From Nemertoderma westbladi (taxonomy: Eukaryota > Animalia > Xenacoelomorpha): DNA of 64,000 nt. The notes under the pieces were generated by a model. The model ran no database searches. It saw nothing but the letters and a program-made list of their open reading frames with translations, and had not been told where the DNA came from. This document shows positions 12,301 through 60,376 of the stretch, piece by piece. The stretch lies in NCBI GenBank assembly GCA_032718475.1, contig JAUCBJ010009106.1:1-64000 (forward strand). Direction: 5' to 3'. How positions within the stretch are numbered: the first letter of the stretch is position 1; every line of letters starts with the position of its first letter. The translations under genes were made by a program, and so were the position numbers.

Positions 12301-15300
12301 GGACTGTTGGTGTATGTTTTGGACTTTTGGTGTATGTTTTGGACTTTTGGTGTATGTTTTGGACTGTTGGTGTATGTTGGACTGTTGGTGTATGTTTTGG
12401 ACTGTTGGTGTATGTTTTGGACTATTGGTGTATGTTTTGGACTGTTGGTGTATGTTTTGGACTTTTGGTGTATGTTTTGGACTGTTGGTGTATGTTTTGG
12501 ACTGTTGGTGTATGTTTTGGACTATTGGTGTATGTTTTGGACTATTGGTGTATGTTTTGGACTTTTGGTGTATGTTTTGGACTGTTGGTGTATGTTTTGG
12601 ACTGTTGGTGTATGTTTTGGACTTTTGGTGTATGTTTTGGACTTTTGGTGTATGTTTTGGACTGTTGGTGTATGTTATGGACTGTTGGTGTATGTTTTGG
12701 ACTGTTGGTGTATGTTTTGGACTGTTGGTGTATGTTTTGGACTGTTGGTGTATGTTGGACTGTTGGTGTATGTTTTAGACTGTTGGTGTATGTTTTGGAC
12801 TGTTGGTGTATGTTTTGGACTGTTGGTGTATGTTTTGGACTGTTGGTGTATGTTTTGGACTATTGGTGTATGTTTTGGACTGTTGGTGTATGTTTTGGAC
12901 TTTTGGTGTATGTTTTGGACTGTTGGTGTATGTTTTGGACTGTTGGTGTATGTTTTGGACTGTTGGTGTATGTTGGACTGTTGGTGTATGTTTTGGACTG
13001 TTGGTGTATGTTTTGGACTATTGGTGTATGTTTTGGACTTTTGGTTTATGTTTTGGACTGTTGGTGTATGTTTTGGACTTTTGGTTTATGTTTTGGACTG
13101 TTGGTGTATGTTTTGGACTTTTGGTGTATGTTTTGGACTTTTGGTGTATGTTTTGGACTGTTGGTGTATGTTTTGGACTTTTGGTTTATGTTTTGGACTG
13201 TTGGTGTATGTTTTGGACTGTTGGTGTATGTTTTGGACTGTTGGTGTATGTTGGACTGTTGGTGTATGTTTTGGACTGTTGGTGTATGTTTTGGACTATT
13301 GTTGTATGTTTTGGACTGTTGGTGTATGTTTTGGACTGTTGGTGTATGTTTTGGACTGTTGGTGTATGTTTTGGACTATTGGTGTATGTTTTGGACTATT
13401 GGTGTATGTTTTGGACTGTTGGTGTATGTTTTGGACTTTTGGTGTATGTTTTGGACTTTTGGTGTATGTTTTGGACTGTTGGTGTATGTTGGACTGTTGG
13501 TGTATGTTTTGGACTGTTGGTGTATGTTTTGGACTATTGGTGTATGTTTTGGACTGTTGGTGTATGTTTTGGACTTTTGGTGTATGTTTTGGACTGTTGG
13601 TGTATGTTTTGGACTGTTGGTGTATGTTTTGGACTATTGGTGTATGTTTTGGACTATTGGTGTATGTTTTGGACTTTTGGTGTATGTTTTGGACTGTTGG
13701 TGTATGTTTTGGACTGTTGGTGTATGTTTTGGACTTTTGGTGTATGTTTTGGACTTTTGGTGTATGTTTTGGACTGTTGGTGTATGTTATGGACTGTTGG
13801 TGTATGTTTTGGACTGTTGGTGTATGTTTTGGACTGTTGGTGTATGTTTTGGACTGTTGGTGTATGTTGGACTGTTGGTGTATGTTTTGGACTGTTGGTG
13901 TATGTTTTGGACTGTTGGTGTATGTTTTGGACTGTTGGTGTATGTTTTGGACTGTTGGTGTATGTTTTGGACTGTTGGTGTATGTTTTGGACTGTTGGTG
14001 TATGTTTTGGACTGTTGGTGTATGTTTTGGACTGTTGGTGTATGTTTTGGACTGTTGGTGTATGTTTTGGACTGTTGGTGTATGTTGGACTGTTGGTGTA
14101 TGTTTTGGACTGTTGGTGTATGTTTTGGACTGTTGGTGTATGTTTTGGACTATTGGTGTATGTTTTGGACTGTTGGTGTATGTTTTGGACTTTTGGTGTA
14201 TGTTTTGGACTGTTGGTGTATGTTTTGGACTGTTGGTGTATGTTTTGGACTATTGGTGTATGTTTTGGACTGTTGGTGTATGTTTTGGACTATTGGTGTA
14301 TGTTGGACTGTTGGTGTATGTTTTGGACTGTTGGTGTATGTTTTGGACTGTTGGTGTATGTTTTGGACTGTTGGTGTATGTTTTGGACTGTTGATGTATG
14401 TTTTGGACTGTTGGTGTATGTTTTGGACTTTTGGTGTATGTTGGACTGTTGGTGTATGTTGGACTGTTGGTGTATGTTGGACTGTTGGTGTATGTTTTGG
14501 ACTGTTGGTGTATATTTTGGACTGTTGGTGTATGTTTTGGACTGTTGGTGTATGTTTTGGACTGTTGGTGTATGTTTTTGGACTGTTGGTTTATGTTTTG
14601 GACTGTTGGTGTATGTTTTGGACTGTTGGTGTATGTTTTGGACTGTTGATGTATGTTTTGGACTGTTGGTGTATGTTTTGGACTTTTGGTGTATGTTGGA
14701 CTGTTGGTGTATGTTGGACTGTTGGTGTATGTTGGACTGTTGGTGTATGTTTTGGACTGTTGGTGTATATTTTGGACTGTTGGTGTATGTTTTGGACTGT
14801 TGGTGTATGTTTTGGACTGTTGGTGTATGTTTTTGGACTGTTGGTTTATGTTTTGGACTGTTGGTGTATGTTTTGGACTGTTGGTGTATGTTGGACTGTT
14901 GGTGTATGTTTTGGACTGTTGGTGTATGTTTTGGACTTTTGGTTTATGTTTTGGACTGTTGGTGTATGTTTTGGACTGTTGGTGTATGTTTTGGACTGTT
15001 GGTGTATGTTATGGACTGTTGGTGTATGTTTTGGACTGTTGGTGTATGTTTTGGACTGTTGGTGTATGTTTTGGACTGTTGGTGTATGTTGGACTGTTGG
15101 TGTATGTTGGACTGTTGGTGTATGTTGGACTGTTGGTGTATGTTTTGGACTGTTGGTGTATGTTTTGGACTGTTGGTGTATGTTTTGGACTATTGGTGTA
15201 TGTTTTGGACTGTTGGTGTATGTTTTGGACTTTTGGTGTATGTTTTGGACTGTTGGTGTATGTTTTGGACTGTTGGTGTATGTTTTGGACTATTGGTGTA

Positions 15301-15976
15301 TGTTTTGGACTGTTGGTGTATGTTTTGGACTATTGGTGTATGTTGGACTGTTGGTGTATGTTTTGGACTGTTGGTGTATGTTTTGGACTGTTGGTGTATG
15401 TTTTGGACTGTTGGTGTATGTTTTGGACTGTTGATGTATGTTTTGGACTGTTGGTGTATGTTTTGGACTTTTGGTGTATGTTGGACTGTTGGTGTATGTT
15501 GGACTGTTGGTGTATGTTGGACTGTTGGTGTATGTTTTGGACTGTTGGTGTATATTTTGGACTGTTGGTGTATGTTTTGGACTGTTGGTGTATGTTTTGG
15601 ACTGTTGGTGTATGTTTTTGGACTGTTGGTTTATGTTTTGGACTGTTGGTGTATGTTTTGGACTGTTGGTGTATGTTTTGGACTGTTGATGTATGTTTTG
15701 GACTGTTGGTGTATGTTTTGGACTTTTGGTGTATGTTGGACTGTTGGTGTATGTTGGACTGTTGGTGTATGTTGGACTGTTGGTGTATGTTTTGGACTGT
15801 TGGTGTATATTTTGGACTGTTGGTGTATGTTTTGGACTGTTGGTGTATGTTTTGGACTGTTGGTGTATGTTTTTGGACTGTTGGTTTATGTTTTGGACTG
15901 TTGGTGTATGTTTTGGACTGTTGGTGTATGTTGGACTGTTGGTGTATGTTTTGGACTGTTGGTGTATGTTTTGGAC
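6371..15976. repeat. 20-bp satellite (GTTTTGGACTGTTGGTGTAT)n with 18-bp variants and higher-order structure; runs into the assembly gap
   Basis: About 9.6 kb visible; rare variants recur at fixed spacings (e.g. TTTTAGAC at 11665 and 12777). Confidence 0.98.
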
Positions 15977-29318: not shown

Positions 29319-32300
29319 CCAATATATAATACTATAATTTGTAATGGCGATCATCAAGCTGTAGGCCTGCCGACAATAAGACCAAGAAAGATACCGGTAC
29401 TAGGCCTATACAGTTTTTATCCCTGAGTCAGACTACAGCCAGACAGCACAATGTCCCCGCTCTTAATCTCCACAGTTTTCATCGTTCTGGGTCGTTTCGT
29501 TGTGGCAGAACCATCCGATCCGCGGGGTAACCCTGCAACCCACCCAATACCCGTATTGGACTGGTTTGCGGAACACCCTGTCGCTACCGTTTCGAACTGC
29601 CGCGCCGAATCGACGGAGATGTGGTCGACGAGTGGATTTAGCCTCTACTGCTCTCGTCGGGGAAGAAGATCTTGGGTCTCCTCTCCACGATCTAGAGGCC
29701 TAATCGCTAAACTCTGTCTACTGTCTCTGGCTGGGGATATTGAGACCAACCCAGGACCCAGCAGGACGCGGGCCCCGAAGATCAACTGTCCCGTCTGTCA
29801 ACGAGGAACAAACTCTCGGAGTAAGATCGTCCAATGCGAGAGTTGTGACACATTTGTACATTTAAAATGTTACCGTAGGAAACGCAGTAATTTATTCTCC
29901 ACCAGAAACAATCTTGAACCAAGTTTTCTCTGCAATAGCTGTATTTTTACCGAACTTCCCTTCCATGATACAATTTTAGAATCAGAAACCGACGATTCAT
30001 TTCTCACATCGCCTCTGCAAACTCCAAGTGATGCTGAGAGTGAAACTTTTAATTTTTTTAAGAAAAAAGGTCTGCATTTTTTGCACTTAAACGCACGATC
30101 TCTGCTTCCAAAACTTTCCGAAATTCGTATTTTAATCAATAAATCCAACCCAGCAGTTTTAACAATCTCTGAAACTTGGCTCGATGATAGTGTTTCTGAT
30201 GGAGAAATTTATATTGATAATTACGTAGTTTTACGTAAGGATAGGGACAGACACGGTGGTGGTGTCTGTACTTACATTCGATGTGATTTAGCTTTTAATC
30301 GTAGGGAAGATTTAGAGTATTGTGACGAAGTTTTACTGGTGGAACTTTTACTTCCTAAAACTAAACCTATTTTAATCGGTACTTTATATCGGCCCCCTAA
30401 ACAATCAGATTTTTTGCCAAATTTTGAAAATACAATTTTATGTAATCTTAGGTCAGACTGTGAAATATATTTCTTAGGTGATTTTAATATCTGTTACCAT
30501 CACAAAGCATCCCCCATCTGTAAACAGTACCAAAGTATTTTAAATTTGTTTGGTTTAAAACAAATTATTCGAGATTCTACCAGAATTACCAGTAAAACTT
30601 CTACTTTACTAGATCACATCCTTTGTAATAATACCGATATTATTTCTCAATCTGGGGTTTTACCTATAGGTCTAAGCGATCATTTTATAGTTTTTTGCAC
30701 AAGAAAGACACAAAAATCTTTTTTCGGGGATCATAAAACAGTAACAGTTAGGTCTATGAAAAATTACAGCAAGGAATGCTTTTTAAGTTTGTTAGTTAAT
30801 TCTGACTGGGAACCCTGTTTTAAGGCCGCTGACATTAACCTTGCGTACACTGTTTTTAAAGATATATTTTTAAAGGCACTTAATACTGTAGCACCAATTA
30901 AAGAAATTAGTCTTAAACAACGCACTGAGCCCTGGATGACCTCGGGTATTCTTAGTAATATCAGAGAAAGAGATAACTATTTGTATAAATTTAGGAAATA
31001 CCGTGTTTTAGCTGACTATAATAATTACTGCAAATATAGAAACCTTGTCCAACGGGAAATAAAAAAAGCTAAATCTGAATATTTGTACAACAAAATAAGT
31101 GAGAATAAAGATAATCCAAAAAGTCTATGGTCTACCCTAAAATCTTTAGGTTATAAAAACCTTAAATCTAAATCGAATATTGTTCTGCAAGATAACGGTG
31201 AGCTGATTCATGATCATACTCTAGTTAGTAATTTATTTAATAATTATTTTACTAATGTTGCCTCTAATTTAGTTAAGAAATTACCGTTATCAAGTAATAA
31301 ATATAGTATAGGGTCCGAAACTCTAAATAATTTTTATTTAGAAAAGTTACAAAGTTCAGAAAAGTTATTTTTAAAACCCGTTTCTGAGGATTTCGTTTTT
31401 AAAAATCTACTTAGCCTATCAGCCTCAAAAGGTACCGGTCTAGATCTAATACCTGCCCGTTTTCTTAAGGATGGTGCTGAAGTACTTAAAGTGCCTATTA
31501 CTTTTATTATTAATTACTCTATCGTAGATAATGTAGTACCAGACGAACTGAAATTAGCTAAGGTTGTTCCTCTGTATAAAAAGAATAGTAAAGTAGAACC
31601 CTGTAATTACAGACCTGTTAGTATCTTAAGTATTGTATCTAAAATTCTAGAACGTTCTGTTTTTCTACAGCTGGAAGCACATCTTAGTAGGCTAAATCTG
31701 ATCTATGAACTTCAGTCTGGTTTTCGTAAATCATATTCTACAGACACCTGCCTTATTAACTTAACTGATACAATTAGATGTAATAACGCAAAGGGTTTAT
31801 ATACTGGTATGGTAATGTTGGACCTACAAAAGGCTTTCGATACTGTAGATCACGAAATTCTGCTTGGTAAGTTAGGCCTGATGGGTGTAGGTTCTATAGA
31901 CTGGTTCAAGTCCTACCTGTCAGACAGAGGTCAAACTGTAGTCATTAGCAAATCGCTGTCTACTGTACAAGAGATTACCTGTGGTGTACCGCAAGGTAGT
32001 ATATTAGGTCCTGTGCTTTTTGTATGCTATGTAAATGATATGATAAGTAGTATAGATCCCGATTTTAAACTCATTTTATATGCCGACGACAGTGCTCTTA
32101 TTTTCTCTCATAAAGATCCTATCCATATTTCCCAAAAGTTAAGTGCAGTTCTAGAATCCTGTAATGAGTGGTTGGTTGATAATAAGCTATCCATTCACTA
32201 CGGTAAAACTGAAAGTATTTTGTTTGGTTCCAAAAGAAAGTTAAAGAAGGTAACTAAGTTTGAAGTCACTAGTAATGGACATAAGATTGAAAATAAAAAG

Positions 32301-33272
32301 GAAGTTAAATATTTAGGCGCCACATTGGATAACTGCTTATCAGGAGAAAGTACAGTGAAAAATATTTTCACGAAAGTTAACAGTAGGCTAAGGTTTCTAT
32401 ACAGAAATAAAAATAGTTTGAACACCGACTCCCGCAAGTTACTTTGCTCTTCTTTAATACAGTGTCACATGGACTATGCGTGCTCTTCTTGGTATGAAGG
32501 CTTAACCAAACAGCTTAAATGTAAATTACAAGTAGCTCAGAATAAAGTAGTACGATTTATTAAAGACTACAAACCTAGGCACCACCTAACTCCAGATGAC
32601 TTTTCTGAATCTGGACTACTTAACTTAGATAGTAGAGTTAAGCAGCTACGCCTTAACCATGTGCATAAAGTGTATAATGGTAAATGTCCCAATTACCTAA
32701 AACAAAAATTCAACAGAGTACGCGATACACACTCTTACAGTACCAGAGCTAGTGCTTCAAACTTCTACCTCCCGAATTGTAAATCCTTTGAATCTGATAC
32801 TTTCTTTTTTAACGGCATAAAAAATTGGAACGCTCTGCCTAATGAAATTAAAAACCTAAATAATCAACATTCTTTTAAATCTGCTGTTAAATCTCACCTC
32901 CGTGTGCAATGTAAAAATAGGTACAATAGTCCTACAGTAAGTTATTAGTTTATTAATTATTTACTATTTATACTGTAATTACGTTTTATAATAAATTGTT
33001 CTGTACATTACATCTTTATCGTTGAGTCGGGCATTGTCACGCTCTCGGTAAAGTTGTACATGTACATAGTGTAATTACGTTTTATATTGGTTTTAGGTTA
33101 GCGTAGTGTAATATTGTATTTGTAACCAAGTAACATAAAGGACCCCCTTGGAAATAAGCTGCAAAGCTTTAGGGGTAATCCTATATGTTATGTTGGACAA
33201 TACCTTTATACCGGTACATTGTTTGGTGTATTTGTTATTGTTTTTACATAATGTATAAATAAATCTATCTAT
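29319..33272 (+). mobile_element. CR1/L2-group (Crack/L2-like) non-LTR retrotransposon with intact single ORF
   Basis: Flanked by CAGAT at 29314-29318 and 33273-33277 (probable TSD); AATAAA at 33258 plus (TCTA)n tail; 3'UTR stem-loop at 33140-33181. Confidence 0.9.
29451..32948 (+). CDS. LINE polyprotein, 1165 aa: hydrophobic leader, 2A-like StopGo motif, PHD finger, APE endonuclease, reverse transcriptase
   Basis: [14 protein letters not shown]; CPVC...[12 protein letters not shown]...CNSC; HLNARSL, ISETWL, GDFN, LDHI, SDH; [29 protein letters not shown]. Confidence 0.93.
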
Positions 33273-42099: not shown

Positions 42100-44680
42100 G
42101 TCAACCTTTTCAGTATCCCTTTCAAGTTGATCTACATACAGTATGTTATGGCCGGTCGTCCACGACTACGCTTCCCATGAGTTGGTTGCCAGAGAAGTAG
42201 ATCTGGTATGACCTCGTCTTTACTTCGCCAGCAGTGCCCACTGAATCTTAATCAGCGTTCACGGAGGGTGGTTGATACAGGTGGTATTGTACCATAAAGC
42301 TCGGCATTTGTCATGTGTTGCCTCCAGCTGATGTTTAGGGCTGCCCTTAGTAGTCTTGTGTACCAACCATCAATTCGTTGTTCAAGTGATTTAGTCAGTG
42401 TCCAGGTCTCACCCCCGTATAAAAATACACTTTCCACTGTGGCTCGAAATAACTTAGTCAACAGGTGTCTGGAGAGATCTGATTTCCAGATGGTATCCAT
42501 TTTTGATAGAGCTACCCAAGCCTTTGCTTTCCTAACTTCTATGTCCTTTTTGCTACTCTCTATCCATGATCCAAGGTACTGGAAGTCGTCAACCTTCCTT
42601 AGTTGATTATTATAAATGGTTATCAAGCTTCCATCAACATTAAAGGTCATGAATTCGGTCTTTGTAGCATTTATATGCAATCCAACCGCCTTAGCAGCCC
42701 TCTCCACTTTATTTAGTAGAAGCTGTGCATCTGCTAGCGTATTAGGGAGCAGGGCGATGTCATCCGCAAAGTCGGTGTCTGTGACTGTAGTTGCCGGATA
42801 TCTACTACTTCAGCGTTCTTGAAGTGTGAATCCCAGATCTTCACCCTTTGTGGCCGTCCTCATTGCGTAATCCAGCACAATTACAAATAGTAATGGTGCT
42901 AATGTGTCACCTTGCAGTACGCCAGCCAGGATTGAGAAAAACTCAGTTTTACCATCTGGTGAGAGTACCTGCGCTTCTGTGTCACAATATAACAATCCAA
43001 TGCCAGCAACAATTACTTTTGGTATTCCATAAGCTCTTAGGATTTCAAGCATTTTACCTCTATGGATGGAGTCGAATGCCTTCTTGAAGTCCACAAAAGT
43101 CATGACTGCGGGGAGATTCTTTGACTTAATTCCTTCCATCAGTCTCCGTAGTGCAAGTATCTGAGCTATTGTTGATCTACTTGGTCGAAATCCGTTTTGG
43201 CTCTTACGCAGTAGTTTCTCTATGTGAGGCATAATCCTATATAGAATCATTTTATTGTATATTTTGGCAGCTACCACAAGCAGACAGATCCCACGATAGT
43301 TTGTTGGTATGCCGAGGTCTCCTTTCTTGGGGAGAGGCTTTATTAGTTGACCTTTAGTCCAAATTGGTGGTGGCTTTTCCCCTTTTAACATCCGGTTGCA
43401 AACATTCAATAATGGTCTGTTTAGCACTCCGGTTTTCCATACCTCCGCTGGGATTTCATCTAATCCACTCGCTTTATTATTGGACATGCTTTTAATGCTT
43501 CTTCGGAGTTCGGCAGGTGTGAAGTCCCCTGTTTCTATAGATAGTGTCTTGTCATATATTTTCCTTGTAGGGCTGACCTCGATGTTTGGTGGCTGCCCAA
43601 GCAAGTTGCTGAAGTGAATTTTCCACTTCCAAACACGTTCTTCAGGACTATCGGCTTTGAGGCGGCCCTTTGCACAACTTTTCCGACCAGATATCTCATT
43701 TACAGTTTGCCAGGTAAGTCTTGATTGTTGCTGTATGTGAGCAGTTGCAATTGCTTCAGTTTTATCCTGTATGTACTTTTCCTGGCTGATGTTGTAGGCC
43801 AATTTAAGATCGTCCTTAGCTTTCTCAACCTTGTTAATGTTTTCGGTTGTTGGTTGTTCGGTTTTAACTTTGTAGGCTATCTTAAGATCTTCTCTCTTAC
43901 AAGTAACCTCAGAGTTTTGCCATGGCACATACTGTTTTCGTTTCGGTTTCTGGGGGATATGACCCTTAGCTGATTCCTTGTGGGCTGTTATTATATTCTG
44001 GTATATTGAATTGGTGGATTGGTCTTCATCCATTGACTGAAGTGTTTCAAAGCGGTTTTGAACTTCTACTGTATAAGCATCATTTACAGCATTGTCAGTT
44101 CTGAGTTTCTCCCAGTCATATTTGATACTGGGTTTGCTGGCTCTCAAACTGAGTCTTATCTCTGCAGTCACAATTCTGTGGTCCGAACCAATTAGGTTGA
44201 ACGAGCTGTATGCCTCCCAGTTGATCATGCTGTTTCTCCACTTTTTGTTTATAAGGATGTAATTCAGTTGTGCTTTTGTTCCATTAGGGTATTGAAAGGT
44301 CCATAGCTTCCCCTTACTCTTTTCGAATGTGTTGTTTGTTGGTATCAATTCACATTCTTCACAAAAGTAAGTACCCATTTCTGTTAGAACTGGTGTTTTA
44401 GGTGTTACCCTTGATGTCTTCTGGGCCAATTTGGGCATTCAGGTCACCAGCAATGACTTTAACATTGTGTTTCGGAATGTCCTTTATAAGTCCAGTCAGT
44501 TCTTCATAAAACTTGACTGCTTGTTCTGGCTCTGAGGCATTGGTTGGACTGTAGCAACGTATAACTGTTGCCTTGGGATTCCCATCAAATGTTGCGATCA
44601 TAACCCTGGAATTTATAGATTCAATGTTGTTTAGGGTCTTAAGTGCAAATGGGCTTAGCAGAATTCCTACTCCACCAAAT
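42100..44680 (-). mobile_element. RTE-clade LINE copy B (partial APE plus RT), inactivated by stops and frameshifts, inside the RBM39 intron
   Basis: NYRGICLL, FVDFKKAFDSI, GVLQGDTLAP, DFADD, FQYLGS; in-frame TGA at 42810-42812. Confidence 0.9.
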
Positions 44681-44691
44681 ACTATACATTA

Positions 44692-45765: not shown

Positions 45766-48700
45766 AAACGATTAACACACTACGTGTGTGTACAAACGAT
45801 TAACACACTACGTGTGTGTACAAACGATTAACACATTACGTGTGTGTACAAACGATTAACACACTAGGTGTGTGTACAAACGATTAACACATTACGTGTG
45901 TGTACAAACGATTAACACATTACGTGTGTGTACAAACGATTAACACATTACGTGTGTGTACAAACGATTAACACATTACGTGTGTGTACAAACGATTAAC
46001 ACATTACGTGTGTGTACAAACGATTAACACATTACGTGTGTGTACAAACGATTAACACATTACGTGTGTGTACAAACGATTAACACATTACGTGTGTGTA
46101 CAAACGATTAACACATTACGTGTGTGTACAAACGATTAGCACACTACGTGTGTGTACAAACGATTAACACACTACGTGTGTGTACAAACGATTAACACAT
46201 TACGTGTGTGTACAAACGATTAACACATTACGTGTGTGTACAAACGATTAACACACTACGTGTGTGTACAAACGATTAACACACTACGTGTGTGTACAAA
46301 CGATTAACACACTAGGTGTGTGTACAAACGATTAACACATTACGTGTGTGTACAAACGATTAACACATTACGTGTGTGTACAAACGATTAACACATTACG
46401 TGTGTGTACAAACGATTAACACATTACGTGTGTGTACAAACGATTAACACATTACGTGTGTGTACAAACGATTAACACATTACGTGTGTGTACAAACGAT
46501 TAACACACTACGTGTGTGTACAAACGATTAACACACTACGTGTGTGTACAAACGATTAACACATTACGTGTGTGTACAAACGATTAACACATTACGTGTG
46601 TGTGTGTACAAACGATTAACACATTACGTGTGTGTACAAACGATTAACACATTACGTGTGTGTACAAACGATTAACACATTACGTGTGTGTACAAACGAT
46701 TAACACATTACGTGTGTGTACAAACGATTAACACACTACGTGTGTGTACAAACGATTAACATATTACGTGTGTGTACAAACGATTAACACATTACGTGTG
46801 TGTACAAACGATTAACACATTACGTGTGTGTGTGTACAAACGATTAACACATTACGTGTGTGTACAAACGATTAACACATTACGTGTGTGTACAAACGAT
46901 TAACACATTACGTGTGTGTACAAACGAGTAACACATTATGTGTGTGTACAAACGATTAACACATTACGTGTGTGTACAAACGATTAACACATTACGTGTG
47001 TGTACAAACGAGTAACACATTACGTGTGTGTACAAACGATTAACACATTACGTGTGTGTACAAACGATTAACACATTACGTGTGTGTGTGTACAAACGAT
47101 TAACACATTACGTGTGTGTACAAACGATTAACACATTACGTGTGTGTACAAACGATTAACACATTACGTGTGTGTACAAACGATTAACACATTACGTGTG
47201 TGTACAAACGATTAACACATTACGTGTGTGTACAAACGATTAACACACTACGTGTGTGTACAAACGATTAACACATTACGTGTGTGTACAAACGATTAAC
47301 ACATTACGTGTGTGTACAAACGATTAACACATTACGTGTGTGTACAAACGATTAACACACTACGTGTGTGTACAAACGATTAACACATTACGTGTGTGTA
47401 CAAACGATTAACATATTACGTGTGTGTACAAACGATTAACACATTACGTGTGTGTACAAACGATTAACACATTACGTGTGTGTGTGTACAAACGATTAAC
47501 ACATTACGTGTGTGTACAAACGATTAACACATTACGTGTGTGTACAAACGATTAACACATTACGTGTGTGTACAAACGAGTAACACATTATGTGTGTGTA
47601 CAAACGATTAACACATTACGTGTGTGTAAAAACGATTAACACATTACGTGTGTGTACAAACGAGTAACACATTACGTGTGTGTACAAACGATTAACACAT
47701 TACGTGTGTGTACAAACGATTAACACATTACGTGTGTGTGTGTACAAACGATTAACACATTACGTGTGTGTACAAACGATTAACACATTACGTGTGTGTA
47801 CAAACGATTAACACATTACGTGTGTGTACAAACGATTAACACATTACGTGTGTGTACAAACGATTAACACATTACGTGTGTGTACAAACGATTAACACAC
47901 TACGTGTGTGTACAAACGATTAACACATTACGTGTGTGTACAAACGATTAACACATTACGTGTGTGTACAAACGATTAACACATTACGTGTGTGTACAAA
48001 CGATTAACACACTACGTGTGTGTACAAACGATTAACACATTACGTGTGTGTACAAACGATTAACACATTACGTGTGTGTGTGTACAAACGATTAACACAT
48101 TACGTGTGTGTGTGTACAAACGATTAACACATTACGTGTGTGTACAAACGATTAACACATTACGTGTGTGTGTGTACAAACGATTAACACATTACGTGTG
48201 TGTGTGTACAAACGATTAACACATTACGTGTGTGTGTGTACAAACGATTAACACATTACGTGTGTGTACAAACGATTAACACATTACGTGTGTGTGTGTA
48301 CAAACGATTAACACATTACGTGTGTGTGTGTACAAACGATTAACACATTACGTGTGTGTGTGTACAAACGATTAACACATTACGTGTGTGTACAAACGAT
48401 TAACACATTACGTGTGTGTGTGTACAAACGATTAACACATTACGTGTGTGTACAAACGATTAACACATTACGTGTGTGTACAAACGAGTAACACATTATG
48501 TGTGTGTGTGTACAAACGATTAACACATTACGTGTGTGTACAAACGATTAACACATTACGTGTGTGTACAAACGATTAACACATTACGTGTGTGTACAAA
48601 CGATTAACACATTACGTGTGTGTACAAACGATTAACACATTACGTGTGTGTACAAACGATTAACACATTACGTGTGTGTACAAACGATTAACACATTACG

Positions 48701-49915
48701 TGTGTGTACAAACGATTAACACATTACGTGTGTGTACAAACGATTAACACATTACGTGTGTGTACAAACGATTAACACATTACGTGTGTGTACAAACGAT
48801 TAACACATTACGTGTGTGTACAAACGATTAACACATTACGTGTGTGTACAAACGATTAACACATTACGTGTGTGTACAAACGAGTAACACATTATGTGTG
48901 TGTACAAACGATTAACACATTACGTGTGTGTACAAACGATTAACACATTACGTGTGTGTGTGTACAAACGATTAACACATTACGTGTGTGTACAAACGAT
49001 TAACACATTACGTGTGTGTACAAACGATTAACACATTACGTGTGTGTACAAACGATTAACACATTACGTGTGTGTACAAACGATTAACACATTACGTGTG
49101 TGTACAAACGATTAACACATTACGTGTGTGTACAAACGATTAACACATTACGTGTGTGTGTGTACAAACGATTAACACATTACGTGTGTGTACAAACGAT
49201 TAACACATTACGTGTGTATACAAACGATTAACACATTACGTGTGTGTACAAACGAGTAACACATTACGTGTGTGTACAAACGATTAACACATTACGTGTG
49301 TGTGTGTGTACAAACGAGTAACACATTACGTGTGTGTACAAACGATTAACACATTACGTGTGTGTACAAACGATTAACACATTACGTGTGTGTGTGTACA
49401 AACGAGTAACACATTGCGTGTGAGTACAAACGATTAACACATTACGTGTGTGTACAAACGATTAACATATTACGTGTGTGTACAAACGATTAACACATTA
49501 CGTGTGTGTGTGTACAAACGATTAACACATTACGTGTGTGTGTGTACAAACGATTAACACATTACGTGTGTGTACAAACGATTAACACATTACGTGTGTG
49601 TGTGTACAAACGATTAACACATTACGTGTGTGTGTGTACAAACGATTAACACATTACGTGTGTGTGTGTACAAACGATTAACACATTACGTGTGTGTACA
49701 AACGATTAACACATTACGTGTGTGTACAAACGATTAACACACTACGTGTGTGTACAAACGATTAACACACTACGTGTGTGTACAAACGATTAACACATTA
49801 CGTGTGTGTACAAACGATTAACACATTACGTGTGTGTACAAACGATTAACACATTACGTGTGTGTACACATTACGTGTGTATACAAACGATTAACACATT
49901 ACGTGTGTGTACAAA
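45766..49915. repeat. 28-bp satellite (AAACGATTAACACATTACGTGTGTGTAC)n with +GTGT variants, ~4.1 kb, intronic
   Basis: Direct reading. Confidence 0.98.
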
Positions 49916-53220: not shown

Positions 53221-56200
53221 ATGTCAGAAGGAATTAATATACCACAAACGGGTGTATCTCACACTGGAGAGAATTCACTACAGAGTTCATCCAATACCTC
53301 ACCAGTACATGCAGCAGCAGCGCCGAGTCAACAGGGCCTATCGAACACCTCATCAGCCAATACTGCGTCAGGTCCACCCAACACCACCCCAAGCCATGTT
53401 GCACCAGGTCAGCAGTACCAGCGACAGGCTAACCAAAGCAACAGGACCAGAGGCACTGGTATGCCTGGTTACCAACAACACAACCCACGACCAACTTTGG
53501 AGCAAATGAAACGCATCCATGAATCACAGCAGAGAAACGCCAACATCAGCCGACGTACCATAGACTATAACTCATCCATAACTCTACTGTTAGAGAACCG
53601 CATCTGGCAGAGATCATGTAGCGATCGGCACATTATTCAGCCATCTGGGATGTATGCACCACTTATAACAGTACCAGCGGGATATTTAGAAAACCCATCT
53701 AATGCCATTGCAACAAAATTCTGCAGACAGAGTGTTAATAAGTTTCGGTGCCCAATATTCTGTGTGTCATGGACACCAGATGGCAAACGGCTAGTAACTG
53801 GAGCAAGCAGTGGAGAATTTACCCTCTGGAATGGTATTCAGTTTAACTTTGAGACAATATTACAAGCCCATGATGGTCCCATAAGAGCTTTGAAGTGGAG
53901 TAATGATGCCCAATGGATGATATCAGGTGATCACAATGGTTTCATAAAATACTGGCAAAACAATATGAATAACGTAAAGATGTTTCAGGCTCACAAAGAT
54001 GTCATTCGTGATGTTACTTTTTGTCCTCTTAACAGCAAATTCGCATCTTGTTCAGATGATGGAACAGTGCGAATTTGGGATTTCTTTAGATTTCATGAAG
54101 AACGTATTCTACGAGGACATGGAACTGATGTGAAATGTGTGGACTGGCATCCAACTCTCAGTGTTCTTGTTTCAGGGAGTAAAGATGCCCAACAACCCAT
54201 GAAATTGTGGGATGGCAGGACTGGGACACCACTGGCAACTCTTCATGGTCACAAAAATACTGTTCTTAAAACACTGTGGAACCGTAATGGTAACTGGCTT
54301 CTGACAGCCAGTCGTGACCATTTGTGTAAAATATGGGACATAAGAATGCTAAAGGAGATTCAGACTATGAGAGGACACCGCAAGGAGGTTTACAGTGCTG
54401 CATGGCATCCAATACATGAAACATTATTCTCATCGGGTGGTCTAGATGGTAGTATTTACTATTGGATGGTTGGCACTGACAAGGAGATTGCATGCATGGA
54501 AGAGGCACATGAAAACATTATATGGGATATGGACTGGCACCCTCTGGGTCATGTTCTAGCAACTGGATCTAATGACCACAATACAAAATTCTGGACTCGC
54601 AATCGCCCTGGTGATTCAATGCAAGACAGATATAACCGACCTGCTGTTGGCCCTATGCGCCCATTTACAACAGCCATACCAACACCGACTGAGGATGGGT
54701 TTGAAGATGGCGAAGTGGAAGCAGATGTGTCTATACCAGGAATGGGGCTGGAGGATGGTCAAGTATGGGATGAGCATGAAAGGTTCGGAGGTACAGGACA
54801 GGAAAGTATTCTTCCTGGATTACAATTCAGTAAGGAGGATTTGCAAGAGCTCGAACTACAGAGAGAGGTAGCCAGTGGATTGAGGCACAATAAGTTAATT
54901 CCATCTAGGGAGAGAGGCAGACCCAGACAATTCAGACAACCAAAACTGGACCCACGATTCCAAGCCATGTGGAATCAGTACAAACAACCACATCTTGAAA
55001 GAACGGGTGTGCCTCAATTTGAGTCAGGGCCTTCGCTACCTTCCTTATTAGATCTTGAATTTGATGCTGATGCCGATGACATGTTTTCAGGAAAAGGTGT
55101 TGGGATTGATGGTGGTGGTAGTATAGATATGCTGGGGAGACAATCAGCTTGGGAACCTAGTGGTGAGCTAATTCCAGAATATCAACATGGCGGAGAGGAA
55201 TTTGGGTTACCAGTATTTGGGAGTACAGTGCCTCCTTTTAGATCACAAGGAAGGGGCAGACTTGGGCATATGCGAGGGAGGGAACATGATCAGGATGATA
55301 GCAGTGGCAGAGGGGGTAAGCGCGGACGATTTGGCGATGTGGATAGAGATATAGTAGATCCAGTGGATGTGGATGAGGATGGGATATATCCAGAACAAAA
55401 TGTTCGAGTCATGCGCGGATCTGGAGATCAGCAAAGAGGTTTCCGTGGAGGTCGTTTTCGAGGTCACAGAGGGGAACGAGGTAGAGGGGCATTTGGGGAA
55501 GGAGGAATGGGTAGAGGAATGTTTGGAGATGAAAGTGCAGGAGTGCATGATGAACGAGGAGGTGGTGAGTATATTAGAGGAATGGGTGGTGATAGGGGTC
55601 GATTTATGCGTGGAGATAGAGGAAGAGGTCTGCTTGGAAATATGGGGGGAGGTATTGGAAGGGATAGAGGTAGGGGGTATGGTGGAGAGAGAGGTAGGGG
55701 GGTGGGGGGAGAAAGGGGCAGGGGGTATAGTGGAGAGAGAGGTAGGGGGCTGGGGGGAGAAGGTGGCAGTGGGATGGGGGGAGAAAGGGGTAGGGGTTAT
55801 AGTGGAGAGAGAGGTAGGGGGTTGGGGGGAGAAGGGGGTAGTGGGATGGGGGGAGAAAGGGGTAGGGGTTATAGTGGAGAGAGAGGTAGGGGGTTGGGGG
55901 GAGAAGGGGGTAGTGGGAGTGGGGGGAGAAAGGGGTAGGGGGTATAGTGGAGAGAGAGGTAGGGGGTTGGGGGGAGAAGGGGGTAGTGGGATGGGGGGAG
56001 AAAGGGGTAGGGGGTATAGTGGAGAGAGAGGTAGGGGGTTGGGGGGAGAAAGAGGCAGGGGGATGGGGGGAGAAAGGGTTAGGGGGGTGGGTGGAGATAT
56101 CAGAAGAGGCACGGGAGGAATCCGGGGTAGAGGAATGGGCAGACAAACCGGAGATGGATTACCTACAGGTAGTTCAGAAGATATGACCGAGAGAGGAAAT

Positions 56201-57428: not shown

Positions 57429-58600
57429 ATACGGGTTGAGTGACCCGAGTATTTTCTACTACGGGTTGAGTGACCCGAGTATTTTCTACTACGGGTTGAG
57501 TGACCCGAGTATTTTCTACTACGGGTTGAGTGACCCGAGTATTTTCTACTACGGGTTGAGTGACCCGAGTATTTTCTACTACGGGTTGAGTGACCCGAGT
57601 ATTTTCTACTACGGGTTGAGTGACCTGAGTATTTTCTACTACGGGTTGAGTGACCCGAGTATTTTCTAATACGGGTTGAGTGACCCGAGTATTTTCTACT
57701 ACGGGTTGAGTGACCCGAGTATTTTCTACTACGGGTTGAGTGACCCGAGTATTTTCTACTACGGGTTGAGTGACCCGAGTATTTTCTAATACGGGTTGAG
57801 TGACCCGAGTATTTTCTACTACGCGTTGAGTGACCCGAGTATTTTCTAATACGGGTTGAGTGACCCGAGTATTTTCTACTACGCGTTGAGTGACCCGAGT
57901 ATTTTCTACTACGGGTTGAGTGACCCGAGTATTTTCTAATACGGGTTGAGTGACCCGAGTATTTTCTACTACGGGTTGAGTGACCCGAGTATTTTCTACT
58001 ACGGGTTGAGTGACCCGAGTATTTTCTACTACGGGTTGAGTGACCCGAGTATTTTCTAATACGGGTTGAGTGACCCGAGTATTTTCTACTACGCGTTGAG
58101 TGACCCGAGTATTTTCTACTACGGGTTGAGTGACCCGAGTATTTTCTACTACGGGTTGAGTGACCCGAGTATTTTCTACTACGCGTTGAGTGACCCGAGT
58201 ATTTTCTACTACGGGTTGAGTGACCCGAGTATTTTCTACTACGGGTTGAGTGACCCGAGTATTTTCTACTACGCGTTGAGTGACCCGAGTATTTTCTACT
58301 ACGCGTTGAGTGACCCGAGTATTTTCTACTACGGGTTGAGTGACCCGAGTATTTTCTACTACGCGTTGAGTGACCCGAGTATTTTCTACTACGCGTTGAG
58401 TGACCCGAGTATTTTCTACTACGCATTGAGTGACCCGAGTATTTTCTACTACGCGTTGAGTGACCCGAGTATTTTCTACTACGCGTTGAGTGACCCGAGT
58501 ATTTTCTACTACGCATTGAGTGACCCGAGTATTTTCTACTACGCGTTGAGTGACCCGAGTATTTTCTACTACGGGTTGAGTGACCCGAGTATTTTCTACT
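57429..58600. repeat. 30-bp minisatellite (~39 copies) starting at an RBM39 5' splice site
   Basis: ACGSGTTGAGTGACCCGAGTATTTTCTACT repeated. Confidence 0.97.
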
Positions 58601-58603
58601 CAC

Positions 58604-58963
58604 AGTTATAAATCCATATCCTTTTGATCTTTTAGTCTCTGGATCGTATATCAACTGGATGCTTTCTATACGTCCGAACGGCTCGAATATATCTCGAAGC
58701 ATCTTTTCGGTGATATTAAAGTGAAGAGAGCCAACGTACAATCTCATTGGTCCTGTAACACCCCGTTGAAGACTCAGTGTACTAGAAGCGGTTCTGTTTT
58801 TCTCAGCTTGGGTCGCCTGTACTTGTATGGGGACCCCCAGTAAACTCTGACCGGCTAGACCGATAGCTAGAGGTACACTCTCTGGTTCCTCGAATTCAAC
58901 GTAACATATTCCCTTGTGGGTTCGGCGAACGTTCTTATCTCCAATAAGTCGCACATCAAACAC
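58604..58963 (-). CDS. RBM39: RBM39 exon (RRM1 second half and RRM2 first half)
   Basis: KGICYVEF, QATQAEKNR, GPMRLYVGSLHFNITE, RSKGYGFIT; 360 nt, phases 0->0. Confidence 0.96.
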
Positions 58964-59172
58964 CTTAAAAATAAGGGGAAAAAACAAAATAAAAAGGTGA
59001 ATTCAGCTTCTCGGGTTTAAATGAAATTGAAAATACGATTATTTATTTAGATTGCGTCTGAACGATTATTAGCTTTTCCAGTTGTCATGGTTTTCTTCAC
59101 AACCCATAAACACAAAAATATAACCAACAGTAAACAACCTCCTGAATTAGCCGACATGCAGTAATTCAATTA

Positions 59173-59482
59173 ATCCACTCAGAGTAGATGTGAAATCAAC
59201 GGAAACTAGCCGTTTCATCTATACCAGCGGGAGTGTATCGGTAGTGCAGGGATACAATAATGTCGTAGGTGTGTATGAATGGAGATGGGTTTATTAGTGA
59301 GAGAGAATAAGGGGTGGGTGAGGGGGGGGGGAGTGGGTAAGGGGTGGGGGGGGGGGGGGTGAGTGGGTGGGGGGGGTGTTGGAGGAATACAGTCATTGAG
59401 GGGATCTGGATGCAGGTCGGCCGCGCTGGTTTAGAACAAAACGACAGTCTGCTAATATTCGCCTTTGTTCATCACTGTGGAT
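59173..59482 (-). ncRNA. Candidate long box C/D scaRNA; predicted guide for U5 snRNA Gm37
   Basis: 6-bp terminal stem ATCCAC/GTGGAT, box C GTGATGA, box D CTGA; AAAGGCGAA antisense to U5 loop I; long internal stem with G-U pairs on the minus strand. Confidence 0.65.
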
Positions 59483-59577
59483 AGGCTGACAACGTGGCGA
59501 GCAGCTAATCATCCCACTGACCAATCAGAGCTCTGTGTCTACCCTCACACAAACAACACGGACCCGTTCGTAAAGGG

Positions 59578-59672
59578 AGCGATTCAGATTGAAAACTAAG
59601 TATCATATCCCAATGTTCGGAGGAACGAATTCATCCTGGGATTATCAGTTTTATTGTTATCCACACACCGCT
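59578..59672 (-). ncRNA. Candidate box C/D guide RNA (scaRNA) for U4 snRNA Am65
   Basis: AGTTTTCAAT-CTGA: 10-nt antisense to U4 AUUGAAAACU, fifth nucleotide opposite A65; D' CTGA, stem, C' ATGATAC; box C degenerate, so the 5' end is uncertain. Confidence 0.65.
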
Positions 59673-59780
59673 GCACCAATACACCACAACACACCGCTGC
59701 ACCAATACACCAGACACACTCAGTAGATACGGGGATTCTGATTGGTTAGCAGGATAACAGCTACTTACCACTAACAGCCA

Positions 59781-59865
59781 GGCATCAGAATATTGCTACT
59801 TTAGTAACAATTGCAGCCAATCACGAGACTAATTATAATCCCAAAGCTAGCTTTCATCATTTGCC
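59781..59865 (-). ncRNA. Candidate box C/D snoRNA (85 nt), no target identified
   Basis: GGCA-A-ATGATGA ... CTGA-TGCC: canonical boxes, spacing and terminal stem; sense to the host pre-mRNA. Confidence 0.65.
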
Positions 59866-60123
59866 GAAATACAAACTAGTGAACACTAGTTAATAAAAGT
59901 TAATTTTTTCCGCTCGATTTGCTATAGAGTTGGATCATTCAAAGTCCTGTTTAAATTACTTAATACTAATAAACAAATTTTGTATAAATATAACATTACT
60001 CGATAAATATTAAATATTTTCTCATATTTCTCGAGATATTGTATTTTAGAAGCTGAATTGTGGGTACCATTCAGTGCCTCAGCTGGAATGTAATAATAAT
60101 ATCGGAATGATCACTATGGTTAC

Positions 60124-60376
60124 CTTTCCGACAGAAGAGAAGAACTCGTGAATATCCTTGGAGGTAATCCTGGCAGCCAACTGGAAACAGAACACAGTCC
60201 TTGCGTCGCGTTCCTCTTGGCTGAAGTGGATGTTGGGACCGTCCTTCCGACCCATAGGGGAAGGACTGCGGCGTTGCCAGCCGCCACCACCCCCGCCACC
60301 CCACCCGGGGCGATACGGGGCGCCACCCCCACGACGCCACTGTGGCGGCGGAGATCTGCGCCACCCTTGGGGGGAC
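60124..60376 (-). CDS. RBM39: RBM39 exon (G/W/R-rich linker and RRM1 start: EERDARTVFCFQLAARI...EFFSSVGK)
   Basis: Frame absent from the ORF track, translated by hand; 253 nt, phases 2->0; matches human EERDARTVFCMQLAARI. Confidence 0.95.

What the first reader, a model, noticed from the sequence alone, without database searches (positions are those of the whole stretch)
59173..59865. Cluster of three box C/D guide RNAs, two aimed at spliceosomal snRNAs, in one intron of splicing factor RBM39
Seen: three C/D-like modules in tandem, all sense to the RBM39 pre-mRNA, within a 1.16-kb intron. Known: animal intronic C/D RNAs are usually one per intron because release relies on debranching and exonuclease trimming. 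Inference: this is either a polycistronic cluster needing an extra release step (alternative splice sites or endonucleolytic cuts) or one multi-domain scaRNA, coupling U4/U5 methylation to RBM39 splicing.
Basis: partly seen in the sequence, partly recalled or inferred. Interest (0 to 1): 0.82.

Follow-up and report, generated by a model that had tools for sequence, protein, structure and literature searches.

The report
Tandem methylation-guide RNA in RBM39 intron
One intron of the splicing-factor gene RBM39 in an unidentified animal holds two complete snoRNA-type (box C/D) domains joined by a long hairpin, with short stretches complementary to the spliceosomal RNAs U4 and U5; it is likely made as one guide RNA of about 690 bases that is predicted to methylate them, a new variant of a design known from human SCARNA9.

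Summary
Real, but two full modules and one half module rather than three equal ones. The 1160-nt RBM39 intron (60123-58964, minus strand) holds the only two stem-closed canonical C/D motifs in the 64-kb window: module 1 (85 nt) and module 3 (about 310 nt). Between them, with spacers of 1-2 nt, lies a 296-nt hairpin (z -5.6) that carries a G.U-rich wobble stem and an 11-nt U4 antisense element directly before a CUGA box; its fifth base faces U4 A65, a known methylation site (6 of 20000 shuffles). That middle unit has no convincing box C. Module 3 has a 9-nt match to U5 loop 1 pointing at G37 through a degenerate AUUA box (132 of 20000). Module 1 has no firm target. The layout matches SCARNA9 (tandem C/D domains, GU-rich spacer, partial cleavage), whose Xenopus locus spans 717 nt. 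Most likely one composite scaRNA of about 690 nt, perhaps partly cut into monomers. Expression and cross-species conservation could not be tested. A perfect, stem-buried 5' splice site 13 nt after module 1 is an untested lead for feedback on RBM39 splicing.

The parts
60124..60376 (-). RBM39 exon upstream of the host intron (first part of RRM1); donor AAG|GTAACC
   Evidence: contig of X5 covers it
58964..60123 (-). Host intron, 1160 nt, GT..AG
   Evidence: skipped by a contig of run X5 (table 5)
58604..58963 (-). RBM39 exon downstream (rest of RRM1, start of RRM2)
   Evidence: (72-76% identity to RBM39 of fish, frogs and a crinoid)
59781..59865 (-). Module 1: canonical box C/D domain, 85 nt; stem GGCA/UGCC, C 59860-59854, candidate D' AUUA 59833-59830, C'-like GUGAUUG 59824-59818, D 59788-59785
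   Evidence: weak generic C/D Rfam hits E 3-9
59835..59849 (-). Candidate guide in module 1: 15 contiguous pairs (11 Watson-Crick, 4 G.U) with 18S rRNA near position 155; weak
   Evidence: 70 of 3000 shuffles of the first 30 nt, 178 of 3000 of the whole interior
59484..59779 (-). Middle domain: 296-nt hairpin; outer stem arms 59779-59737 and 59529-59484
   Evidence: z -5.6, 0 of 100 shuffles; arm duplex -56.7 against -20.6 +/- 3.6 kcal/mol, 0 of 500
59763..59769 (-). Consensus 5' splice site G|GTAAGT, 13 nt after module 1, predicted paired inside the outer stem; use not shown
   Evidence: 7 such heptamers on the minus strand of the window, 2 of them at RBM39 exon ends
59663..59719 (-). GU-rich 26-27-nt duplication folding into a 12-bp helix (59709-59698 with 59683-59672) with 6 G.U pairs, 4 of them consecutive; candidate Cajal-body signal
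59600..59648 (-). D'-like CUGA 59648-59645, 7-bp stem, C'-like AUGAUAC 59606-59600; a C-like AGGAUGA (59637-59631) lies at the top of the stem
59584..59598 (-). U4 antisense element UAGUUUUCAAU (59598-59588) and box D CUGA (59587-59584); fifth base faces U4 A65
   Evidence: 28 of 5000; 6 of 20000
59173..59482 (-). Module 3: canonical box C/D domain, about 310 nt; 6-bp terminal stem, C 59475-59469, inner stem 59449-59424 with 59229-59204, long C/A-rich loop, D 59182-59179 (D-side guide without a target found)
59453..59466 (-). U5 loop-1 antisense element AAAGGCGAA (59466-59458) and candidate D' AUUA (59456-59453); fifth base faces U5 G37
   Evidence: 476 of 20000 without, 132 of 20000 with a box filter

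Best explanation
The intron likely yields one composite box C/D scaRNA of about 690 nt (59865-59173) that is predicted to guide 2'-O-methylation of U4 A65 and U5 G37. Shown by sequence: two canonical C/D domains at the two ends, a strong hairpin between them with 1-2-nt spacers, a G.U wobble helix in it, and the two antisense elements in the right register to a box. Inferred: after splicing and debranching, exonucleases trim to the 5' end of module 1 and the 3' end of module 3, where core C/D proteins stop them, so no extra cut is needed to make the full-length RNA; the wobble helix would hold it in Cajal bodies; the U4 guide works from inside the linker, held by the D'/C'-like motif and the enclosing stem instead of an own terminal box C; a Drosha-type cut in the long stem would release part of it as monomers, as for SCARNA9. 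Module 1 is an orphan or a weak 18S guide.
For: Two stem-closed C/D motifs, unique in the window, 0 of 5000 shuffles with two. U4 duplex of 10 Watson-Crick pairs plus one G.U against both U4 sequences fetched by family search and against the Rfam U4 consensus, fifth base on A65, 6 of 20000 shuffles; A65 is a listed methylation guided by SCARNA5 in human and by mgU4-65 in fly (PMC7960923 table; PMC3884663 passage). U5 duplex of 9 pairs, 3 nt after a canonical box C, fifth base on G37 (132 of 20000); fly has mgU5-38. The same AUUA tetramer falls at the D' position in module 1 if its 18S candidate is read at the second A. Linker fold z -5.6. SCARNA9 is two tandem C/D domains with a 175-nt GU-rich spacer, intron-encoded and partly cut into monomers (PMC4041459 passage; Drosha/DGCR8, PMC7648615); its Xenopus locus is annotated over 717 nt with four domains.
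Against: No RNA evidence: no small-RNA data were found, and nothing shows the ends or the length of the product. No orthologous intron could be fetched, so conservation and covariation are untested. The middle unit lacks a box C in canonical register, so its activity is not assured. The U5 duplex is short (9 bp) and needs a D' with two mismatches; without the box filter the chance level is 2.4%. Targets are from other eukaryotes, not from this animal. Variation within the species is not significantly lower in the cluster than in the flanking intron (4 of 473 against 8 of 468 sites, p 0.26). The whole 711-nt stretch does not fold better than shuffles (z -1.0, 3 of 20), and the wobble helix may be a by-product of a tandem duplication in a genome rich in minisatellites.
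Confidence: 0.55

Rival explanations
1. True polycistronic cluster: the long stem is only a processing signal that an RNase III-type enzyme cuts to completion, and three separate RNAs (85, about 95 and about 310 nt) are the functional products.
For: Modules 1 and 3 each have their own terminal stem in canonical register. A 6-bp helix AGCGGU/AUCGCU can close a 95-nt middle unit when that stretch is folded alone. The outer stem is long enough to be a cleavage substrate, and Drosha/DGCR8 releases C/D fragments from human scaRNA 2, 9 and 17 (PMC7648615).
Against: The 95-nt unit has no box C with 2 or fewer mismatches next to that helix, so its 5' end would be poorly protected. In the human precedent the full-length RNA persists and cleavage is partial.
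Confidence: 0.2
2. Alternative splicing separates the modules and feeds back on the host: the consensus donor at 59769/59768 is used when the outer stem is open, which puts module 1 into a stop-containing exon extension (a decay substrate) and starts a shorter lariat holding the U4 and U5 guides, like SNORD86 in NOP56.
For: G|GTAAGT lies 13 nt after module 1 and is a closer match to the consensus than the donor in use, AAG|GTAACC; the extension reads into a stop after 14 codons; most of its bases are predicted paired. Module 1 has no firm target. SNORD86 is an orphan C/D RNA that switches splicing of its host (PMC11028025 passage); human RBM39 autoregulates by a poison exon (PMC10477243, search listing only).
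Against: The heptamer occurs 15 times in 128 kb of the window's two strands, about 8% chance somewhere in the cluster, and was noticed after the fact. The only joint seen in contigs is the full 1160-nt skip; contigs drop rare forms, so this is weak. Burial in a stem may simply silence a chance site.
Confidence: 0.1
3. A sno-lncRNA-like remnant or a decaying cluster: only the two end domains are functional, and the U4 element in the linker is a relic of an older guide that has lost its box C.
For: No box C for the middle unit; a low-depth contig of X4 carries 3 substitutions and a 2-nt deletion in the 3' half of module 1, and X2 has a change at position 6 of the D-side guide of module 3; no significant drop in variation in the cluster.
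Against: The U4 element is perfect and in exact register (6 of 20000), which a relic would not keep for long; none of the 4 X2 variants or 6 X4 substitutions in the cluster hits the U4 guide, the U5 guide or a C or D box, though few hits are expected by chance; the X4 contig has depth 3.9 and may be in error.
Confidence: 0.12
4. Chance motifs in an intron, with no RNA product.
For: No Rfam family at gathering score; no expression data.
Against: 0 of 5000 shuffles give two stem-closed C/D motifs; 6 of 20000 give the U4 register; 0 of 500 give the outer stem; these three signals are largely independent.
Confidence: 0.03

Closest known systems
SCARNA9 (mgU2-19/30), vertebrates
   Same: Intron-encoded, tandem box C/D domains at both ends, GU-rich spacer, snRNA targets; the Xenopus locus spans 717 nt with four domains.
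   Different: Targets U2, lies in CEP295; spacer of 175 nt without a reported guide. Here the targets are U4 and U5, the host is RBM39, the spacer is a 296-nt hairpin that itself carries a guide and D box, and the 3' domain is about 310 nt. No Rfam similarity.
SCARNA5 (U87), vertebrates
   Same: Guides U4 A65 and a U5 loop-1 position from one RNA.
   Different: A C/D plus H/ACA composite of about 280 nt that targets U5 U41. Here no hairpin-hinge-hairpin-ACA domain folds between the candidate boxes, and the U5 register points at G37.
Drosophila mgU4-65 and mgU5-38 scaRNAs
   Same: Same predicted target positions (fly G38 taken as human G37 from the names; the one-base offset is recalled).
   Different: Listed as separate scaRNAs; fly C/D scaRNAs use a cgaGUUAnUg Cajal-body box, which is absent here. 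Their sequences and host genes could not be read (papers not held), so orthology is untested.
U90/SCARNA7 and mgU2-47/SCARNA28
   Same: Long C/D scaRNAs with an apical hairpin; G.U/U.G wobble stem as Cajal-body signal.
   Different: Single C/D domain with the wobble stem inside it. Here the wobble helix lies in the linker, and the long hairpin of module 3 ends in a C/A-rich loop instead.
sno-lncRNAs and SNORD86/NOP56
   Same: Two snoRNAs in one intron give one RNA capped by both; an orphan C/D RNA can steer donor choice in its host.
   Different: sno-lncRNAs are described as protein decoys from mammals, without a guide in the linker; donor switching is not shown here.

Membership tests
Box C/D guide RNA (modules 1 and 3) | RUGAUGA and CUGA closed by a terminal stem in kink-turn register | tested here: met
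   4-bp and 6-bp stems; unique in the window
Box C/D guide RNA (middle unit) | Own box C pairing with box D | tested here: not met
   no box C with 2 or fewer mismatches forms a stem of 4 bp or more with CUGA 59587
Box C/D guide RNA | Antisense element of about 10 nt or more, fifth base on a methylated residue: U4 A65 | tested here: met
   site from PMC7960923 table; numbering agrees with n.56T, n.63T, n.65A in PMC13253345 passages
Box C/D guide RNA | Same for U5 G37 | tested here: inconclusive
   9 pairs and a D' with two mismatches; 132 of 20000 shuffles
Box C/D guide RNA | Same for module 1 | tested here: inconclusive
   15 pairs with 4 G.U to 18S, 70 of 3000 shuffles; the matching human site A159 is listed as human-specific and not modified in Xenopus
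Box C/D guide RNA | Stable RNA bound by fibrillarin, Nop56, Nop58, 15.5K | not testable with these tools
   no small-RNA or immunoprecipitation data
scaRNA | Cajal-body signal (CAB box or G.U/U.G wobble stem) | tested here: inconclusive
   12-bp helix with 6 G.U pairs predicted; no fly-type CAB box
scaRNA | Cajal-body localisation and WDR79 binding | not testable with these tools
   needs FISH or immunoprecipitation
SCARNA9-type tandem scaRNA | Two C/D domains in one intron joined by a GU-rich spacer | tested here: met
SCARNA9 family proper | Sequence homology and U2 G19/A30 guides | tested here: not met
   no Rfam hit; no box-adjacent U2 duplex
SCARNA5/U87-type composite | H/ACA domain between D' and C' | tested here: not met
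   no second hairpin with a free ACA tail; no Rfam hit
SCARNA9-type tandem scaRNA | Full-length RNA plus released monomers | not testable with these tools
   needs northern or end mapping

The most novel reading that the evidence does not exclude
A three-guide, 690-nt intronic scaRNA in which a U4 guide works from inside the linker without its own box C, a U5 G37 guide sits in the 3' domain, and the linker stem doubles as a switch that hides a consensus splice donor, so that assembly or cleavage of the guide RNA sets the level of the splicing factor RBM39 by alternative donor use and decay: a feedback loop from snRNA-modification capacity to a core splicing regulator.
Probability: 0.08. Interest if true: 0.8.

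Novelty: new variant of a known kind. Interest (0 to 1): 0.46.

Why it matters
If expressed as predicted, it extends the tandem C/D scaRNA design and the G.U wobble signal, both described for vertebrates in the papers read, to an animal that is likely not a vertebrate, with a different host and different targets. It also offers a testable guide for U5 G37, a methylation with no guide listed for human in the review table read or in the human and Xenopus table searched, and a search key (guide plus AUUA) for finding one. U4 A65 lies in the U4 region where variants cause ReNU syndrome, so guides for it are of some wider interest. The parts and the general design are known, so this is not a new kind of system unless the buried donor proves regulatory.

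Tried and rejected
No assembly is held for the window. Rfam at gathering score: 0 hits in 64 kb. Orthologous introns: the one metagenome scan gave 3 of 111 candidates, all distant RRM proteins at 44-47% identity; the 12 contaminated genome bins gave only 5 weak RRM matches at 37-47%. Sequencing runs: no RNA holder listed; X5 behaves as spliced RNA but shows no contig over the modules, which is no evidence either way. The animal's own U2 and U5 could not be read, and its U4 and rRNA were not obtained. Motif scans of viral contigs gave 6 loci, 0 with an Rfam hit. U4 was not found above cut-off in 63 further bins or by motif in 20; U12, U6atac and U3 were found in 0 of 5 bins each, so minor-spliceosome RNAs, U3 and tRNAs were not tested as targets for module 1 or for the D side of module 3. 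Rejected: long-range pairing of the GU repeat with the C/A-rich loop of module 3 (20 of 300 shuffles as good); a 10-nt match to 28S at 59564-59555 and a 10-nt match to U2 at 59651-59642 (neither is followed by a box in fifth-base register); a 7-bp match of the module 3 D side to 18S; a U87-type H/ACA composite; an outer C(59860)/D(59182) pair (no stem). The 11 U5 sequences all carry the target, but they were fetched by a motif that contains it, so this count is circular; the Rfam U5 consensus is the independent support. Literature: searches returned no paper describing sno/scaRNAs hosted by RBM39 or Caper; Caper, CG11266 and Rbm39 had 0 occurrences in the fly C/D supplement, which omits scaRNAs, and rbm39 had 0 in the Xenopus supplement. 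The library lacks most subscription papers, and the two fly papers most likely to give host genes were not held. Earlier findings of this scan: none returned.

Full report
Host and intron. The minus strand carries RBM39: the exon at 58963-58604 gives a 120-residue piece 72-76% identical to RBM39 of fish, frogs and a crinoid among the best 120 of 1676 hits, and tblastn places further exons from 60270 down to 39949. No hit is close, so the animal is of undetermined group and likely not a vertebrate (inference). The intron runs 60123-58964 (1160 nt, GT..AG). A contig of run X5 skips exactly this stretch; the run is not on record as RNA, so a retrocopy is not formally excluded. The cluster starts 258 nt after the donor and ends 210 nt before the acceptor.

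Boxes. Two canonical C boxes and nine CUGA lie in the intron. Requiring RUGAUGA, a downstream CUGA within 45-400 nt and a stem of 4 bp or more in canonical register gives exactly two motifs on both strands of the whole window, 59860/59785 and 59475/59179; intron shuffles gave one in 8 of 5000 and two in 0 of 5000. Rfam has no family match, only generic C/D hits on module 1 at E 3-9. The middle unit is different: CUGA 59587 is preceded by a C'-like AUGAUAC, a 7-bp stem and a D'-like CUGA 59648, but no box C with 2 or fewer mismatches closes a stem with it. A C-like AGGAUGA at 59637 would give a 54-nt unit without a terminal stem. Which, if either, is used is unresolved.

Structure. The three elements abut: module 1 ends at 59781, the middle hairpin spans 59779-59484, module 3 starts at 59482. 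The middle folds at -111.7 kcal/mol against -85.0 +/- 4.8 (0 of 100 shuffles), and its outer arms pair at -56.7 against -20.6 +/- 3.6 (0 of 500); modules 1 and 3 are weaker (4 and 1 of 100). A 26-27-nt GU-rich duplication forms a 12-bp helix with six G.U pairs at probability 0.98. Module 3 has an inner stem of about 25 bp around a long C/A-rich loop. The whole 711 nt do not beat shuffles (z -1.0), and pairing between the GU repeat and the C/A loop is not significant (20 of 300).

Targets. Target RNAs came from eukaryotic DNA in public genome bins, confirmed by Rfam: two U4 sequences, 11 U5, several U1, U2 and U6, and three rRNA sets, one of them likely animal. None is from this animal. The element 59598-59588 pairs with both U4 sequences over 11 nt (10 Watson-Crick, 1 G.U) and with the Rfam consensus; its fifth base before CUGA faces the A that is A65 in human numbering, consistent with n.56T, n.63T and n.65A in PMC13253345 (passages). 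Chance: 28 of 5000 shuffles for 10 pairs to any of five snRNAs, 6 of 20000 with the fifth base on one of 20 listed methylation sites. The element 59466-59458 pairs over 9 nt with U5 loop 1; the letter pattern G37, U41, 43, C45, 46 in the table of PMC7960923 (passages) fixes the numbering, and G37 is fifth before AUUA. Chance given the two real C boxes: 476 of 20000, or 132 of 20000 with a box of at most two mismatches. That table lists no guide for U5 G37, and the human and Xenopus table has no U5-G37 entry (PMC6984369 supplement); fly has mgU4-65 and mgU5-38 (PMC3884663 passages and introduction). Module 1 has no box-adjacent duplex of 9 or more Watson-Crick pairs in a row. Its best candidate is 15 contiguous pairs with 4 G.U to 18S near position 155, which again puts AUUA at D' if the second A is the target; chance 70 of 3000. 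The position falls in the range that aligns with human A159 (SNORD45; exact equivalence recalled), a site listed as human-specific (PMC11014333 supplement) and unmodified in Xenopus, so this stays a weak lead. The D sides of modules 1 and 3 have no target found.

Variation. Against the window, the X2 contigs differ at 4 of 473 covered sites in the cluster and 8 of 468 in the flanking intron (p 0.26). No change hits a C box, a D box, or the U4 and U5 guides, but few would by chance. One X2 change lies in the D-side guide of module 3, and a contig of X4 at depth 3.9 has three substitutions and a 2-nt deletion in the 3' half of module 1; both fit unused D-side guides, and the latter may be error. 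Conservation between species could not be tested.

Mechanism. Established: intronic C/D RNAs are trimmed from the debranched lariat up to ends shielded by core proteins, and two in one intron give one composite RNA (PMC11028025 passages). SCARNA9 is two tandem C/D domains with a GU-rich 175-nt spacer that carries the Cajal-body signal and is partly removed (PMC4041459, parts 1-2 of 6 and passages); Drosha/DGCR8 can make the cuts (PMC7648615, part 1 of 5 and passages); the Xenopus locus is annotated over 717 nt with four domains. Inferred for this locus: the default product is a 690-nt RNA capped by modules 1 and 3, held in Cajal bodies by the wobble helix, guiding U4 A65 from the linker and U5 G37 from module 3, with optional release of monomers by a cut in the long stem. 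I give this 0.55, complete polycistronic release 0.2, a relic middle unit 0.12, donor-driven separation 0.1 and chance 0.03.

The buried donor. G|GTAAGT at 59769/59768 lies 13 nt after module 1, inside the 5' arm of the outer stem, with 6 of its 7 bases predicted paired; the donor in use is AAG|GTAACC, and reading into the intron meets a stop after 14 codons. This recalls SNORD86 in NOP56, and human RBM39 autoregulates through a poison exon (PMC10477243, search listing only). The heptamer occurs 15 times in 128 kb, it was noticed after the fact, and no such joint appears in contigs. It is a lead, not a result.

Comparison and novelty. It works like a SCARNA9-type tandem scaRNA but is not a SCARNA9 family member (no homology, other targets), and it shares the U4 A65 target with SCARNA5 without the H/ACA domain (PMC6298559 part 1 of 3). 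Searches found no paper on RBM39- or Caper-hosted guides (PMC4053861 and PMC13736004 passages added nothing), but the fly papers that give host genes were not held, so the fly RNAs could prove to be orthologs in the same host. Verdict: a real feature, new variant of a known kind, interest 0.46; expression, conservation and the regulatory reading remain open.

Noticed in passing
window 53221-55935 (+): An intronless 905-residue ORF for the 3'-end processing factor WDR33 (E 8e-181 to WDR33 chains; WD40 repeats) lies nested on the opposite strand inside an RBM39 intron; possibly a retrogene.
   Followed up: partly
window 59798-59791 (-): The D side of module 1 has 8 bases complementary to the Rfam U4 consensus immediately 5' of the A65 guide's target (alignment); it could be accessory pairing if modules 1 and 2 are one RNA, but it is short, lies in a predicted hairpin, and the X4 contig deletes 2 nt at its edge.
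   Followed up: partly
window 61236 (-): A second G|GTAAGT in the upstream RBM39 intron, 10 nt after a pyrimidine-rich AG and inside an inverted-repeat element (about 61430-61000); possible microexon or chance.
   Followed up: no
window 57430-58600: A 30-nt minisatellite of 39 copies begins at the donor of the next RBM39 intron and includes part of it; the window holds many other arrays, such as 6371-15976 (20 nt) and 45766-49868 (28 nt).
   Followed up: no
window 29451-32945 (+): A 1165-residue LINE-type ORF with PHD finger, endonuclease and reverse transcriptase; broken LINE-type pieces also lie at about 42255-44688 (-) inside RBM39.
   Followed up: partly
L083, L084, L080, L098 (genome bins G007, G001, G005, G043): Public bacterial genome bins contain eukaryotic snRNA gene clusters (U1, U2, U4, U5, U6, SRP, 5S) and rDNA arrays as contamination.
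   Followed up: partly
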